Origin: an uncultured Haloferula sp.
GTDB taxonomy: Bacteria > Verrucomicrobiota > Verrucomicrobiia > Verrucomicrobiales > Akkermansiaceae
Direction: 5' to 3'
Length of the DNA stretch: 64,000 nt
Assembly (NCBI GenBank): GCA_965652295.1
Contig: CBFGTS010000004.1
Location: 160,001 to 224,000, forward strand
Below, in pieces: positions 9,730 to 12,590 of this stretch (positions are counted from its first letter, which is position 1; each line of letters begins with the position of its first letter). The notes below the pieces were generated by a model. It saw only the letters and a program-made list of their open reading frames with translations. It did no database searches and was not told the origin of the DNA. The translations under genes were made by a program, and so were the position numbers.

Positions 9730-10929
9730 ATGGCGACGATCGCCGTTTTGGGCACCCTCGACTCCAAGGGGGCGGAGCATGCCTACCTCGCGGAACGGAT
9801 TCGCGAGAGAGGGCACGAGACGCTGCTGATCGATGTCGGCAGTGGAGGCCCCCCCACGGTGGCTCCCGATATTTCCCGCGAGGAAGTGGCCGCGGCCGCG
9901 GGCTTGGATTTGGGCCCGTTGCTGAGCCGCCACGACCGGGGCGAATGCGTGACCGCCATCGCGGCGGCGGCACCCGTGATGATCGCCGGGCTCGTGGGTG
10001 AGGGCCGGATTCACGGCCTGATCTCCGCTGGAGGCGGGGGAGGAACCGCGATCGGAACGGCGGTGATGCGTCAGCTGCCGCTCGGGTTTCCGAAGCTGAT
10101 GGTTTCCACGCTCGCGAGCGGGAACACGTCGCCCTACGTGGGAACGAGCGACTTGGTGATGATGCCCAGCATCGTCGATGTCGCGGGTTTGAATTCCGTT
10201 TCGCGCGGCGTGTTCGCACGGGCCGCGGGGGCGATCTGCGGCATGGTCGAAGCACGGATCGAGTCGGACGAGGCGAAACCGCTCGTGGTTGCGAGCATGT
10301 TCGGCAACACCACCGGGTGCATTGAGGAGGCGAAACGGATCATGGAGGAGGCCGGCTATGAGGTGCTGGTTTTCCACGCGACCGGCACCGGCGGGCGGGC
10401 GATGGAGGCTTTGATCGCAAGCGGCATGGTCGCGGGCGTGCTGGACCTCACCACCACGGAATGGGCTGATGAAATGGTCGGCGGAATCCTGTCGGCGGGT
10501 CCGACACGGCTGGATGCGGCGGCTCAGGCGGGAATCCCCGCGGTGATCGCGCCGGGTTGCCTCGACATGGTGAACTTCGGCGAGCGTTCCAGCGTGCCCG
10601 CGCGGTTCGAGCGGCGGAATTTTTACATTCACAATCCGCAGGTGACCCTGATGCGGACCTCGGTGGAGGAAAGCAGGAGTCTCGGAGAGCTCCTCGCGCG
10701 CAAAGCCAACGCTTACCGTGGCCCGGTGGCGCTGGTCCTGCCGGAGGGCGGATTGAGCGCGATCGGGGAAAAGGGTGGTCCTTTTCACGACGGGCAAGCG
10801 GATCAAGCCCTGTTCGACGCCGTGGAACGAGAGGCGAGGATCGAGGTGAACCGTCGCCCGGAGGCCATCAATGACCCGGGTTTTGCAAAATTTTGTGCCG
10901 AGCGGTTGCTGAGTATGCTCGATCGGTGA
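9730..10929 (+). CDS. Tm-1-like ATP-binding domain protein (UPF0261)
   Basis: GTLDSKG, GGGGGT, SIVDVAGLN, FHATGTGG, DLTTTE and LDMVNFG motifs; usual partner of the TIM-barrel gene. Confidence 0.88.
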   Translation: MATIAVLGTLDSKGAEHAYLAERIRERGHETLLIDVGSGGPPTVAPDISREEVAAAAGLDLGPLLSRHDRGECVTAIAAAAPVMIAGLVGEGRIHGLISAGGGGGTAIGTAVMRQLPLGFPKLMVSTLASGNTSPYVGTSDLVMMPSIVDVAGLNSVSRGVFARAAGAICGMVEARIESDEAKPLVVASMFGNTTGCIEEAKRIMEEAGYEVLVFHATGTGGRAMEALIASGMVAGVLDLTTTEWADEMVGGILSAGPTRLDAAAQAGIPAVIAPGCLDMVNFGERSSVPARFERRNFYIHNPQVTLMRTSVEESRSLGELLARKANAYRGPVALVLPEGGLSAIGEKGGPFHDGQADQALFDAVEREARIEVNRRPEAINDPGFAKFCAERLLSMLDR

Positions 10930-11019
10930 GGCGAATGCGCATTTTTTCGCCCTGCTTCTCCGGACGGGTTCATGCAGAGCCTGATTTTCAAATGGTTGCG
11001 GCTGGTGCTGTTAACCAAC

Positions 11020-11571
11020 CTTGATCAAAGCGAGAACCGGACTTTCGTTTGATGAGAAAAATCTGCTGACTTTGAAAATCGCTCTCGCAAGAGCCGATAG
11101 AAGTCAGGGATGACGAGCTTCACTCCAACCCGGGTCCCGATGAGAGGTGACTTCGATCTGGGGGGAAAGAGCTGCCTTGAGGTTGCACTCGGGTGGAGTG
11201 GGCTCGCGTTCCCTGTTCCGGCTTGCGCCAGGGGCGGGAAAAATCGTTTTACCGAGCTGGTTCTCGAAAGAGAGCCCACGGCCTTGGATGCCACCGTGGA
11301 AACGAAGTCGGGGGACTTTCGTCACGCGGATGAGCCCGCCGTGGGTTTAACGACCGGCATGTTTGTGGACAGCGCCGTGGAGGTTCGGGGGAACCATTCC
11401 GGCGCCGTCCAATCCTTCTCCACAGAGAAGCCCGTCCTGAATTCCTCCTGTGGGACCCGGCTGGGGGGCTGGGCCAGGGAGTGGGCTGCTTAGCGGTGCC
11501 CGCAGGACGGGCAATGAAGATGGGACCGTGCGAATTCGGGGGAAGACGCACGAGTCCCATCTTCCTTTTTT
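11020..11571 (+). ncRNA. Candidate large structured ncRNA with five GGGG tetraloops (family unassigned)
   Basis: Nearly continuous helices with G-U pairs valid only on +, GCAA and GAAA tetraloops, multi-branch junctions, and a terminal long hairpin followed by a T-run. No convincing ORF. Confidence 0.7.
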
Positions 11572-11601
11572 AAAGGAGACGGCAATGTCCCGGGCGGAGC
11601 C

Positions 11602-12150
11602 TCACTCCTTGGTCGAATCGGCCTTCGGGTCTTCGGCGGGAACGAACTTCAGGACCGTGCCATTGATGCAGTAGCGTTGATCGGTCGGAGTGTCGAAGCC
11701 TTCGCCGGTGAAGACGTGCCCCAAGTGGCCATCACACACAGCACAGAGGACCTCGGTGCGGGCGTAGCCCAGCTTGTAATCGGTGGAGGTCTTCACGTTC
11801 CGGGCGTTGGCGGGATCGTAAAATGACGGCCAGCCACAGCGACTGTCGAATTTCTCCTTGGAGCTGAACAATTCGGCTCCGCAGCCGGCACAGTAGTAGG
11901 TGCCTGCGCCCTGCTCCTTGAATTCCTTGTAAACCGTGCCGCTGGGGGCCTCGGTGGCGGCCTTGCGCAGGATGGCGTATTGCTCGGCGGTGAGCTCCTT
12001 CTTCCACTGCTCGTCGGTTTTTTCGACGGGAGCGGTTGGCTGTGCGGGTGGGGTATCAGAGGTTTCCATGACGGTTGGTTTCGGAGATTCGTCGCCACAC
12101 GCGGTCAGCGGCAGGCAGGCAATGAGAAGGGGGAGGAACGGCAACTTCAT
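11602..12150 (-). CDS. msrB: Peptide-methionine (R)-S-oxide reductase with predicted lipoprotein signal
   Basis: CAGC, GWPSFY, CAVCDGHLGHVF and RYCING motifs; N-terminal LTAC lipobox. Confidence 0.92.
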   Translation of the reverse strand: MKLPFLPLLIACLPLTACGDESPKPTVMETSDTPPAQPTAPVEKTDEQWKKELTAEQYAILRKAATEAPSGTVYKEFKEQGAGTYYCAGCGAELFSSKEKFDSRCGWPSFYDPANARNVKTSTDYKLGYARTEVLCAVCDGHLGHVFTGEGFDTPTDQRYCINGTVLKFVPAEDPKADSTKE

Positions 12151-12239
12151 GGGGTCATCATGGAGCTGGTGAGCGGTTCGTGCAAGCGGCCCGCAGTGTT
12201 GGGAATTGCCGGCCGGGTGGGGCGGGCACAGGATCGGGC

Positions 12240-12590
12240 ATGTCCGATTCAATCAAGGAGCTGACCCGCCGGGTGCTGGAGTTTTCAACCGCAAGGGAAT
12301 GGGACGCCTACCATAATCCCAAAGATCTGGCGGTGGCGGTGGCCGCGGAGGCAGGCGAGCTGATGCAGCATTTCGTCTGGCAGCAAGGGGAGCAGATTGA
12401 GCGCCGGGTGGCGGAGCGGCGGGACGAGATCGCCGCGGAAATGGCCGACGTGGCGATTCTCCTGATGGAGATGGCGGAACGTTGCGGCATCGACCTGGCG
12501 GATGCAGTGCGGGCGAAGATCGAACTCAACGAAGGTCGCTATCCGGTGGAGAAATCCCGCGGCAACAATCTCAAGTACAACCAGCTTTAG
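12240..12590 (+). CDS. MazG-like nucleotide pyrophosphohydrolase
   Basis: REWDAYHNPKDLAVAVAAEAGEL..EMADV..K..N..RYP. Confidence 0.88.
   Translation: MSDSIKELTRRVLEFSTAREWDAYHNPKDLAVAVAAEAGELMQHFVWQQGEQIERRVAERRDEIAAEMADVAILLMEMAERCGIDLADAVRAKIELNEGRYPVEKSRGNNLKYNQL

What the first reader, a model, noticed from the sequence alone, without database searches (positions are those of the whole stretch)
11020..11571. Large structured ncRNA candidate displaying five GGGG tetraloops
Seen: about 550 nt with no credible ORF that folds almost end to end on +. Hairpins lie at 11024-11053 and 11066-11107 (GCAA loop). A helix of about 25 bp with G-U pairs joins 11107-11135 to 11187-11213. A multi-branch domain closed by 11243/11353 contains GGUUCUC(GAAA)GAGAGCC. 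CUUCUC(CACA)GAGAAG lies at 11415-11430, helix 11430-11439 pairs with 11503-11512, and a terminal long hairpin is followed by a U-run. Stems of unrelated sequence are capped by the same GGGG loop at 11160-63, 11310-13, 11387-90, 11463-66 and 11538-41. Inference: selection on RNA structure with a repeated recognition loop, such as a protein sponge, C-rich/anti-SD pairing, a loop-donated G-quadruplex or multimer contacts. From memory, the large MISL motif was reported in Verrucomicrobia, so this may be a member or relative; I cannot confirm that.
Basis: partly seen in the sequence, partly recalled or inferred. Interest (0 to 1): 0.85.

Follow-up and report, generated by a model that had tools for sequence, protein, structure and literature searches.

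The report
New GGGG-loop structured RNA family
This gene-free stretch encodes a roughly 500-base folded RNA, found almost only in Luteolibacter/Haloferula-type soil and water bacteria and in no RNA catalogue searched, whose hairpin tips all end in the same four-G loop, which suggests that one unknown partner reads many tips at once.

Summary
Window 11066-11571 (+) lies between a UPF0261 gene and msrB. It folds far better than shuffles (z -7.28) and carries GGGG loops at all five stated places. It matches no Rfam 15 family. The real MISL RNA of this genome lies on another contig, so MISL membership is rejected.

It is a conserved RNA gene family. A covariance model of the 5' domain finds it in 29 of 35 genomes of the genus, with up to three copies each, and in 1 of 19 genomes of one sister genus. 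It was found in none of 112 genomes from 16 other genera of the family. Helices covary: 29 of 39 pairs show double changes. Across 74 distinct copies, 277 hairpins with 130 different stems carry the motif K-Y-C[GGGG]G-G-M, mostly 75-84 nt apart, and often on the terminator too.

CsrA is absent from all 35 genomes, Hfq is absent here, and I detected no Shine-Dalgarno signal. Four RRM proteins are present.

Best reading (about 0.45): a multivalent platform or decoy for an unknown factor that reads GGGG loops. Untested rivals are pairing with C-rich RNA, self-assembly or G-quartets, and a role tied to a CHAT/two-partner-secretion cluster. The scan had not noted this family before (three look-ups).

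The parts
11037..11063 (+). Promoter-like box: CCGGACTTTCG, then the AT-rich GAGAAAAATC. In most homologues this reads GGATCATC..N7-9..AAAAAWTT.
   Evidence: Conserved upstream of all copies in the alignments. The sigma-70 consensus scan found nothing. The transcription start was not mapped. This is an inference.
11071..11100 (+). Near-invariant 5' block UUUGRAAAUCG - short hairpin (GCAA loop in the window) - CGAUWG. It is either the first helix of the RNA or partly a promoter element.
   Evidence: The pairs AU, UA and CG are invariant in 62 of 62 sequences, so covariation says nothing about them. MFE helix 11078-11085/11090-11098. The block served as the anchor of the pattern scan.
11108..11211 (+). 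5' domain: a long helix (11108-11135 with 11187-11211, about 25 bp) that carries an apical arm.
   Evidence: MFE. On 62 sequences, helices 3-6 of the model have 26 of 26 pairs with changes on both sides.
11153..11172 (+). Loop L1: apical hairpin with G-run 11160-11165 (UCU[GGGG]GGA).
   Evidence: Comparative structure. Closing pairs are CG in 60 of 62 and CG or UG in 61 of 62 sequences. The window's own MFE does not predict it.
11212..11238 (+). Hairpin with a UUGC loop. In many homologues this position holds a GNRA-capped hairpin (GAAA or GCAA).
   Evidence: MFE. Loop lists of homologues.
11256..11358 (+). Multi-branch domain with the GAAA hairpin (11263-11272) and loop L3, GAAGUC[GGGG]GACUUU (11302-11322; GGGG at 11310-11313).
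   Evidence: MFE. L3 has homologous GGGG hairpins with different stems at the same distance from the 5' anchor. In most homologues a loop AUGGGGGAA replaces the window's GAAA hairpin.
11366..11411 (+). Loop L4: a 19-bp hairpin capped by GGGG (11387-11390).
   Evidence: MFE. Compensatory changes among three close relatives. Position conserved across copies.
11416..11429 (+). Short hairpin CUUCUC(CACA)GAGAAG.
   Evidence: MFE. Kept in G021 and G041, with one double change.
11430..11512 (+). Domain closed by helix 11430-11439/11503-11512. It holds loop L5, CCGGCU[GGGG]GGCUGG (11453-11475; GGGG at 11463-11466), and a UAGC-loop hairpin (11483-11501).
   Evidence: MFE. Consensus fold of three sequences.
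11516..11571 (+). Loop L6: intrinsic-terminator-like 20-bp hairpin capped by GGGG (11538-11541), followed by the U-run 11566-11571.
   Evidence: MFE. Double changes in 4 stem pairs among three sequences. In 41 of the 59 homologues where my heuristic found a terminator, its loop is GGGG. One contig of run X18 stops matching exactly at 11571. The simple terminator scan did not call it.

Best explanation
Shown: window ~11066-11571 (+) is a stand-alone gene for a ~500-nt, highly structured non-coding RNA. It belongs to a previously uncatalogued family that is essentially confined to the Luteolibacter/Haloferula genus of Verrucomicrobiota. The family has a covarying 5' domain followed by three to five long hairpin modules about 78 nt apart. 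Each module, the terminator hairpin included, is capped by the same element, K-Y-C[GGGG]G-G-M.

Inferred: the RNA is a multivalent display platform. Its four to seven GGGG tips are binding sites for one trans-acting factor, most likely an RNA-binding protein. These genomes lack CsrA, this genome lacks Hfq, and it has four RRM-type proteins, which makes these the first candidates. The RNA would then either titrate that factor, as a decoy or sponge in the manner of CsrB/RsmZ but with a different loop and a different protein, or form a stable particle with it. Paralogous copies, and other GGGG-loop transcripts in the same genome, would draw on the same factor.
For: It is a real RNA family:
- The fold has z -7.28.
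- Model R1 hits 29 of 35 genus genomes at E<=0.01.
- 62 of 72 pattern loci are confirmed, and all 62 carry Verrucomicrobiota labels.
- In the 5' domain, 79.5% of cells are paired against 29-44% when partners are slid. 29 of 39 pairs have double changes. The covariation score is 0.323 against 0.154 in shuffles (0 of 500 reach it).
- In the 3' half, 16 of 76 pairs have double changes among only three sequences.

The loop itself is under selection:
- 277 GGGG hairpins occur in 72 of 74 distinct copies, with 130 distinct 5-bp stems. The closing pair is C-G in 244 of 277.
- Strict GGGG-tetraloop hairpins average 2.82 per copy against 0.15 in shuffles. CCCC loops average 0.01.
- Independent MFE folds give 3.7 GGGG loops among 8.3 hairpins per RNA (59 of 74 copies).
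- The terminator loop is GGGG in 41 of 59 copies.
- The MISL RNA of the same genome has 0 of 24.

A common trans factor fits better than scaffold-specific contacts:
- The same motif sits on unrelated scaffolds in this genome: a four-copy repeat on C3, C13 and C21, and a ~250-nt mini-copy on C6.
- 14 of the 30 strict motif hairpins lie in the 21% of the genome I called non-coding.

Regulator inventory: CsrA in 0 of 35 genomes, Hfq not found, and four RRM_1 proteins in the own genome.

Precedent: passages of PMC11697453 show an RRM protein, RbpB, as a global RNA binder associated with multicopy sRNA families in Bacteroides.

Weak expression hint: a contig of a metatranscriptome run (X19) covers 11269-11615, while nothing was laid on the upstream UPF0261 gene or beyond 11615 in msrB.
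Against: No partner has been identified. No RNA-binding gene is consistently adjacent. The one adjacency seen, a mini-copy beside an RRM gene in the own genome, is absent at all 9 orthologous RRM loci of other genomes.

The tight 75-84 nt spacing and the conserved scaffold are more than a simple sponge needs. They fit a fixed three-dimensional architecture or self-assembly equally well.

Transcription is not proven. All runs laid were contigs, X19 is a 93%-like relative and runs 44 nt past the terminator, and DNA can be present in RNA libraries.

The strand rests on the U-run, the GNRA loops and a modest excess of G-U over A-C cells (222 against 137).

That RRM proteins bind G-rich RNA is recalled from older cyanobacterial work and was not checked here.
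Confidence: 0.45

Rival explanations
1. The RNA acts by base pairing. The exposed G4-G6 tips pair with C-rich stretches of other RNAs. The RNA would then be a sponge for C-rich small RNAs, or a multi-seed regulator of mRNAs.
For: G-runs displayed in loops are complementary to C-rich seeds. The listing for PMC8959179 (abstract start only, not read further) concerns an sRNA paper that mentions GGGG. That C-rich sRNA loops pair with G-rich leaders, as in RsaE/RoxS or CcnA, is recalled. Start-codon contexts here are C-rich at -1 and -2 (46% and 41% C).
Against: A 4-nt loop closed by a conserved C-G pair is a poor kissing partner. No conserved C-rich partner was found, though I did not search for one systematically. 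Only 21 of 1470 crude start sites have CCCC directly before the ATG. I detected no Shine-Dalgarno use, so anti-SD-type C-rich sRNAs have no obvious role. The top three stem pairs are conserved as well, which suggests that a shape is read, not just a sequence.
Confidence: 0.17
2. The GGGG tips are architectural. They make tertiary or quaternary contacts, so the RNA forms a homo-oligomer like ROOL, GOLLD or OLE, or the tips donate G-columns to inter-hairpin G-quartets.
For: The module spacing is conserved: 78 of about 140 successive loop distances fall in 75-84 nt, although the modules are not alike in sequence. GNRA loops are conserved as well. The size is similar to known ornate RNAs. Passages of PMC12286853 show that GOLLD, ROOL and OLE form homo-oligomers held by conserved loops.
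Against: G-only loops cannot pair with each other by Watson-Crick rules, and the family has no conserved unpaired C-rich receptor (1.6 C-runs per copy; the main one sits in a covarying helix). The same loop motif on unrelated small scaffolds in the genome is hard to explain by scaffold-specific contacts. The number of GGGG hairpins varies between copies (0-7 per copy by the strict count). No G-quadruplex was reported in the ornate-RNA structures (0 occurrences of the word).
Confidence: 0.15
3. The RNA belongs functionally to a conserved gene cluster (TPR-CHAT protease, TpsA-like exoprotein, S8 protease, ShlB-type transporter). It would act on those neighbours, as a leader, a 3' UTR or a regulator of that system.
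For: In 23 of 72 copies with an upstream ORF, a ShlB-type gene precedes the RNA on the same strand. In 16 of 72, a TPR(-CHAT) gene is divergent. In 15 copies, a conserved signal-peptide protein with a TPS-like N-terminus follows on the same strand. One genome has three copies inside a single such cluster. The a-to-b spacing of about 3.2-3.7 kb recurs in several records.
Against: The window's copy is not next to that cluster. Its neighbours are UPF0261 and msrB, and the same msrB neighbour is seen in G041 and, by the alignment, in G021. The own genome's tpsA-like and CHAT genes lie on other contigs, and no copy precedes the tpsA-like gene. Copies keep their own promoter-like box and their own terminator. 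The tpsA-like gene has its own AT-rich upstream region after the RNA's last hairpin. Shared ancestry of one subclade inflates the counts.
Confidence: 0.1
4. It is a member of a known family (MISL, CsrB/Rsm-type sponge, GOLLD, ROOL, OLE, 6S and so on), or it is not an RNA at all (a coding remnant or a REP-like DNA repeat).
For: The loops and the terminator layout resemble Rsm RNAs. Open frames of 127 and 103 aa exist.
Against: No Rfam match at gathering score in the whole window. In the region, the only matches at E<=10 are chance-level (best E 1.4). MISL lies elsewhere. CsrA is absent. There is no Pfam match, and translated similarity appears in all six frames. The locus is single-copy by BLAST in the own genome, the stems are unrelated and TRF finds nothing, so it is not a REP or tandem repeat.
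Confidence: 0.03

Closest known systems
CsrB / RsmX-Y-Z type protein-sponge RNAs
   Same: Stand-alone RNAs that end in an intrinsic terminator and carry many copies of one short purine motif in hairpin loops, the terminator loop included. They occur as several paralogues per genome. This is the closest match for how the RNA may work.
   Different: The motif is C[GGGG]G, not A(N)GGA. GGA at the 3' edge is present in only about 126 of 277 hairpins, and there it lies in the stem. CsrA is absent from 35 of 35 genomes. No Rfam Csr/Rsm model matches. Unlike those sponges, this RNA has a large covarying scaffold and a fixed spacing of about 78 nt.
Large ornate bacterial RNAs of unknown function (ROOL, GOLLD, OLE, MISL, raiA)
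   Same: Several hundred nucleotides long, folded almost end to end, multi-branched, with GNRA loops, a narrow taxonomic range and unknown function. MISL occurs in the same genome.
   Different: No match to any of their Rfam models. MISL is a separate locus with no GGGG loops. None of these families is known to me to carry a repeated G-only tetraloop (recalled). Searches for 'GGGG tetraloop' and 'GGGG loop' found no RNA paper.
RRM-protein-associated multicopy sRNA families of Bacteroides (FopS/GibS with RbpB; PMC11697453, passages read)
   Same: Bacteria without Hfq or CsrA but with small RRM proteins. The sRNA families are multicopy and paralogous. The idea is that the RNA-binding protein and the sRNAs titrate each other.
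   Different: Those sRNAs are 65-70 nt long, with a single-stranded seed and a terminator. They act by pairing with mRNA start regions, and no G-loop motif is described. No binding to RRM proteins has been shown for the RNA here.

Membership tests
MISL RNA (Rfam RF03079) | Match to the Rfam covariance model at or near its gathering score (274.6 bits) | tested here: not met
   No MISL match in window 10850-11700 even at E<=10, and none in the whole window at gathering score. The genome's MISL match is at G000:C14:12554-13447, 255.6 bits, E 1.5e-76.
MISL RNA (Rfam RF03079) | Shared architecture with the genome's own MISL copy | tested here: not met
   The MISL copy is about 890 nt long, and none of its 24 predicted hairpin loops is GGGG. 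The RNA here is about 500 nt long, with four GGGG tetraloops in its MFE and a fifth in the comparative fold.
Csr/Rsm sponge RNAs (CsrB, CsrC, RsmX/Y/Z) | A cognate CsrA/RsmA protein is encoded in the genome | tested here: not met
   PF02599 is found in 0 of 1 own genome and 0 of 35 genus genomes. The control genomes E. coli, B. subtilis and T. maritima were detected.
Csr/Rsm sponge RNAs (CsrB, CsrC, RsmX/Y/Z) | Repeated GGA motifs in hairpin loops | tested here: not met
   The loop is GGGG. The base after G+1 G+2 is C in 143, A in 92 of 277 hairpins, and lies in the stem. The GGA consensus for CsrA is recalled.
Csr/Rsm sponge RNAs (CsrB, CsrC, RsmX/Y/Z) | Match to an Rfam Csr/Rsm model | tested here: not met
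   None among the matches.
GOLLD, ROOL, OLE, raiA, HEARO, 6S, tmRNA, RNase P (Rfam models) | Match to the family's covariance model | tested here: not met
   0 matches at gathering score in the 64-kb window. The 9 weak matches in the region are C/D-box sRNA, miRNA and lncRNA models at E 1.4-7, far below their thresholds.
Homo-oligomeric ornate RNAs (kind, not family) | Forms defined RNA-only multimers through conserved loops | not testable with these tools
   Needs SEC-MALS, native gels or cryo-EM. Only the precedent was read (PMC12286853, passages).
Intrinsic (Rho-independent) terminator at the 3' end | GC-rich hairpin directly followed by a U-run | tested here: inconclusive
   The MFE gives a 20-bp hairpin 11516-11564 followed by C and six U at 11566-11571. 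The tool's simple scan found 0 terminators, because the stem is interrupted beside the loop. No 3'-end mapping is available.

The most novel reading that the evidence does not exclude
The conserved GGGG tips are structural nodes, not protein sites. Four tips, from one molecule or from four copies, would come together as the columns of G-quartet stacks. The RNA would then be a potassium-dependent, loop-donated G-quadruplex assembly, a natural bacterial RNA built around inter-hairpin G-quartets. Such an assembly might scaffold or gate the TPR-CHAT (caspase-like) and two-partner-secretion cluster in which many copies sit.
Probability: 0.08. Interest if true: 0.95.

Novelty: new variant of a known kind. 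Interest (0 to 1): 0.74.

Why it matters
Verrucomicrobiota are abundant in soil, rhizosphere, water and gut, yet little is known of how they regulate genes after transcription. These genomes lack CsrA, this one also lacks Hfq, and I could detect no Shine-Dalgarno signal in it.

A large RNA family that shows four to seven identical GGGG tetraloops on a conserved scaffold, in up to three copies per genome, gives a concrete handle on that question. The loop can be used as bait to find the factor that reads it. Loop mutants give clean controls. Cultured carriers exist among the named records: Luteolibacter sp. Populi, Haloferula rosea KCTC 22201, Haloferula sp. BvORR071 and Luteolibacter marinus NBU1238.

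If the partner is a protein, this would be a Csr-like titration system built from different parts. If the loops make RNA-RNA or G-quartet contacts, it would add a new structural principle to the ornate RNAs now being solved by cryo-EM. Either way the family deserves an Rfam entry.

Tried and rejected
- **MISL membership** was rejected.
- **A CsrA sponge** was rejected.
- **Hfq** was not found.
- **An anti-SD or SD mimic** was judged unlikely. GGAGG occurs upstream of 2.6% of 3508 crude starts against 2.7% in background, and GGAG shows no positional peak in 1470 starts. My start calls are crude, and the assembly has no recognisable 16S 3' end.
- **A coding gene** was rejected.
- **A tandem or REP-like repeat** was rejected.
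- **BLAST alone** found only 7 of 34 other genus genomes. The covariance model was needed.
- **The order-wide R1 search** (151 genomes, stricter filters) found only the own genome, G005 and one partial hit.
- **A periodic triple-CG6 pattern** over 401 genomes of the order gave matches outside the genus at about the rate of the reversed-pattern control. The exception was one true member in a sister genus (G382), plus one unrelated 82-nt tandem repeat.
- **A link to the RRM gene.** The mini-copy beside an RRM gene in the own genome is not seen at the 9 orthologous loci.
- **The second GGGG-hairpin repeat** (C3, C13, C21) has no BLAST relatives in the other 34 genus genomes beyond one 27-nt hit, and no Rfam match.
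- **Sequencing runs.** All four runs laid were contigs. They show presence, not transcript ends. Parts without cover mean nothing. The purine-rich loose end after 11571 in X18 may be a tail or a strain difference.
- **Promoter and terminator scans** found nothing.
- **Literature.** Searches for GGGG tetraloops or loops, for Verrucomicrobia ncRNA, and for Luteolibacter/Haloferula sRNA found no paper describing this RNA. The library lacks most subscription journals.
- **Earlier scan notes** hold nothing similar by sequence or by words.
- **Not done.** I did not use the metagenome scan, structure prediction or complex prediction. None of them takes RNA.

Full report
**The locus.** The finding lies in a 672-nt gap between two convergent genes. 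Upstream is a UPF0261-family gene (9730-10929, +), itself preceded by a PEP-hydrolase-like gene. Downstream is an msrB (SelR) gene (11602-12252, -).

**The fold.** Folding 11020-11575 as RNA gives -269.7 kcal/mol, against -220.6 +/- 6.75 for 100 dinucleotide-preserving shuffles (z -7.28). The opposite strand folds as well (z -7.78), so energy alone does not give the strand.
- In the MFE of 11066-11572, four of the five G-runs are GGGG tetraloops on stems of 8, 19, 9 and 20 bp.
- The fifth (11160-63) is a GGGG loop only in the comparative structure.
- Open frames exist but have no Pfam match.
- Translated similarity to homologues turns up in all six frames, with frame switches. This is the pattern of nucleotide conservation, not of a coding gene.

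**No known family.** Rfam 15 gives no match at gathering score anywhere in the window. At E<=10 the region gives only nine chance-level matches to C/D-box sRNA, miRNA and lncRNA models. That MISL copy has no GGGG loop among its 24 predicted hairpin loops. The MISL copy also serves as an internal control: GGGG loops are not a general habit of structured RNAs in this genome.

**Homologues.** BLAST found the locus once in its own genome and in 7 of 34 other genomes of the genus.
- A seven-sequence alignment of the 5' domain folded into a long helix with an apical GGGG hairpin. 10 of its 39 pairs carried compensatory changes.
- The covariance model built from it (R1) matched 29 of 35 genus genomes at E<=0.01 (26 of 31 high-quality ones), with up to three matches per genome.
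- In an even draw of 151 genomes of the family, it matched 16 of 19 genomes of this genus, 1 of 19 of one sister genus, and 0 of 112 genomes from 16 other genera.
- In 151 genomes of the order, it matched only the own genome, G005 and one partial hit. Stricter filters applied to both of these searches.
- A pattern taken from the conserved 5' block was scanned over one genome for each of 185,579 species and gave 72 loci. R1 confirmed 62 of them.
- All 62 are labelled Luteolibacter, Haloferula, Akkermansiaceae or Verrucomicrobi*. The 10 unconfirmed loci are one Verrucomicrobiae locus and nine from other groups (one labelled Spartobacteria, eight from other phyla), which I read as chance hits.
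- Several carriers are cultured isolates.

**Covariation.** On the 62-sequence alignment of the 5' domain:
- 79.5% of cells form standard pairs, against 29-44% when partners are slid by 1-3 columns.
- 29 of 39 pairs have changes on both sides.
- The covariation score is 0.323, against 0.154 in shuffles (0 of 500 reach it).
- The alignment was fitted to the model, which favours it, but the margin is large.
- The near-invariant 5' block (UUUGRAAAUCG...CGAUWG) never varies. It may be partly a promoter element, so the 5' end is uncertain within about 11066-11085.

In the 3' half, the window and its two closest relatives already show 16 of 76 predicted pairs with double changes. These include the L4 and L5 hairpins and the terminator.

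**The loop motif.** I collected 74 distinct full-length copies.
- G-runs of four or more average 6.85 per copy, against 4.10 in mononucleotide shuffles.
- Strict GGGG-tetraloop hairpins with an uninterrupted stem of at least 4 bp average 2.82, against 0.15. CCCC loops average 0.01.
- Independent MFE folds of the 59 copies for which my heuristic found a terminator gave 8.3 hairpins per RNA, 3.7 of them with GGGG loops.
- Pooling hairpins with at least 3 bp gives 277 in 72 of 74 copies, with 130 distinct 5-bp stems.
- The consensus is K-Y-C[GGGG]G-G-M. The closing pair is C-G in 244 of 277. The second pair is C-G, U-G or U-A. The third is G-C or U-A.
- Stem positions 4-6 pair in 74-84% of hairpins, against 36-45% after shuffling partners.
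- Successive loops lie 75-84 nt apart in 78 of about 140 cases, with a second mode at 105-109 nt.
- The modules have no sequence likeness beyond the loop, and TRF finds no repeat.
- The terminator loop is itself GGGG in 41 of 59 copies, on stems that differ widely.

**Strand and ends.**
- The U-run after the last hairpin, the GNRA loops, an AT-rich box conserved just upstream and an excess of G-U over A-C cells (222 against 137) all point to the + strand.
- The simple promoter and terminator scans found nothing.
- For expression I have only contigs. A metatranscriptome run (X19) has one contig over 11269-11615 from a 93%-like relative. Two runs of uncertain type cover 11177-11571. One contig stops matching exactly at the end of the U-run and continues with a purine-rich stretch.
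- Nothing was laid on the upstream UPF0261 gene or beyond 11615 in msrB in those runs. This is a weak hint, not proof.

**What reads the loops?**
- CsrA is absent from the own genome (98% complete) and from all 35 genus genomes.
- Hfq is not found. Four RRM_1 proteins are present.
- I saw no Shine-Dalgarno enrichment upstream of crude start sites. Positions -1 and -2 are C-rich, and AAATT-type words are enriched.
- The same loop motif also occurs on other scaffolds in this genome: a four-copy repeat unit of about 170 nt with five GGGG hairpins on contigs C3, C13 (twice) and C21, and a mini-copy of about 250 nt on C6. The mini-copy shares the 5' block and has a GGGG terminator.
- Of the 30 strict motif hairpins in the genome, 14 lie in the 21% I called non-coding.
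- One motif on several unrelated scaffolds is most simply explained by a common trans-acting reader. I therefore favour a multivalent platform or decoy for an unknown factor, with RRM proteins as first candidates. A Bacteroides precedent exists for RRM proteins bound to multicopy sRNA families (PMC11697453, passages).
- No partner is shown. The mini-copy's position beside an RRM gene is not repeated at the 9 orthologous loci.

**Rival readings.**
- The fixed spacing and the conserved scaffold fit a defined three-dimensional object. Large bacterial RNAs are known to form homo-oligomers through conserved loops (PMC12286853, passages). Architectural roles, including G-quartet formation, therefore stay open.
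- Pairing with C-rich RNAs is possible, but the short closed loop argues against it and no partner was found.
- A link to neighbouring genes is also open. Of the 72 copies with an upstream ORF, 23 follow a ShlB-type transporter gene and 16 are divergent from a TPR(-CHAT) gene. Fifteen are followed by a conserved TpsA-like secreted protein. One genome has three copies inside one such cluster.
- Flank genes were taken as the longest open frame, which can be the antisense frame, as it was for the window itself. Only Pfam-confirmed or BLAST-clustered flanks are counted.
- The window's own copy, and those of its closest relatives, are not next to that cluster. The cluster genes of this genome lie on other contigs.

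**Verdict.** This is a new, well-supported family of large structured RNAs with an unusual repeated GGGG tetraloop. Its function is unknown. The mechanism I commit to is multivalent display of GGGG tips to a trans-acting factor, at about 0.45.

Noticed in passing
L120:1320-1500; L121:126-300 and 312-470; L122:1380-1560 (G000 contigs C3, C13, C21; outside the window): A second element built from GGGG hairpins. It is a unit of about 170 nt in four copies, with a 13-bp hairpin GGCCCCGGUCUCU[G6]AGAGAGCCGGGGCC, three or four more G-loop hairpins, and a conserved tail (..GTAGATTCnCACGATTTC..CGCAATTCCCTCAnTTGGAGGGG). It has no Rfam match and, by BLAST, no relatives in the other 34 genus genomes beyond one 27-nt hit. 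Two copies lie within about 1.5 kb of a tRNA gene.
   Followed up: partly
L127:1888-2140 (G000:C6 about 125760-126012, + strand): A mini-copy of the family of about 250 nt. It has CTGGAAAT..GCGATTGGAG, then GGCU[GGGG]GGCU, then a 16-bp terminator with a GGGG loop and a T-run. It is transcribed divergently from an RRM-protein gene. R1 did not find it at E<=0.01. The 9 orthologous RRM loci of other genomes lack it.
   Followed up: yes
L042:4349-13300 (G004): Three copies of the RNA sit inside one gene cluster, in the order: RNA-a, TPR-CHAT protease (-), RNA-b, TpsA-like secreted protein (+), S8 protease (-), ShlB-type transporter (+), RNA-c. Parts of this layout recur in many genomes.
   Followed up: partly
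L042:8218-9309 (protein P0001): A 363-aa protein with a signal peptide and an N-terminus that looks like a two-partner-secretion (TPS) domain. The TPS likeness is my reading from memory. It matches no Pfam or NCBIfam model. It is present in 32 of 35 genus genomes.
   Followed up: partly
G000, whole genome (scripts): GGAGG-type words are not enriched upstream of crude start codons. Instead, C is preferred at -1 and -2 (46% and 41%), T is avoided at -1 (7%), and AAATT/AATTT words are enriched. This suggests Shine-Dalgarno-independent initiation and promoters close to the start codons. The gene starts were called crudely.
   Followed up: partly
L152:1500-1900 (G198, another family of the order): A tandem array with an 82-nt period. 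Each unit carries GGAGCC[GGGGGG]CGCAC. Part of the stretch is masked with N. It is unrelated in sequence to the family studied here.
   Followed up: no
window 11571-11572 in run X18: A contig matches up to the last U of the U-run and then continues with about 57 purine-rich letters that are not in the genome. This could be a heteropolymeric 3' tail or a strain difference. The run's type (RNA or DNA) is a guess.
   Followed up: no
L171-L180, the first ~130 nt upstream of the RRM gene: The leader of this RRM-protein gene is conserved across 10 genomes (..GCCTGCC.GCGGCAGGCAT.GGTCGTTTGC..TCGGGTTGAAGCGCAGTGTC.. on the gene's strand). It includes a GC hairpin and may be an autoregulatory or cold-shock-type element.
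   Followed up: no
L144:1240-1760 (G382, sister genus): A bona fide member of the family in a lower-GC genome of a sister genus, with five CC[GGGGGG] hairpins. The periodic pattern found it, and R1 then confirmed it (32.8 bits).
   Followed up: yes
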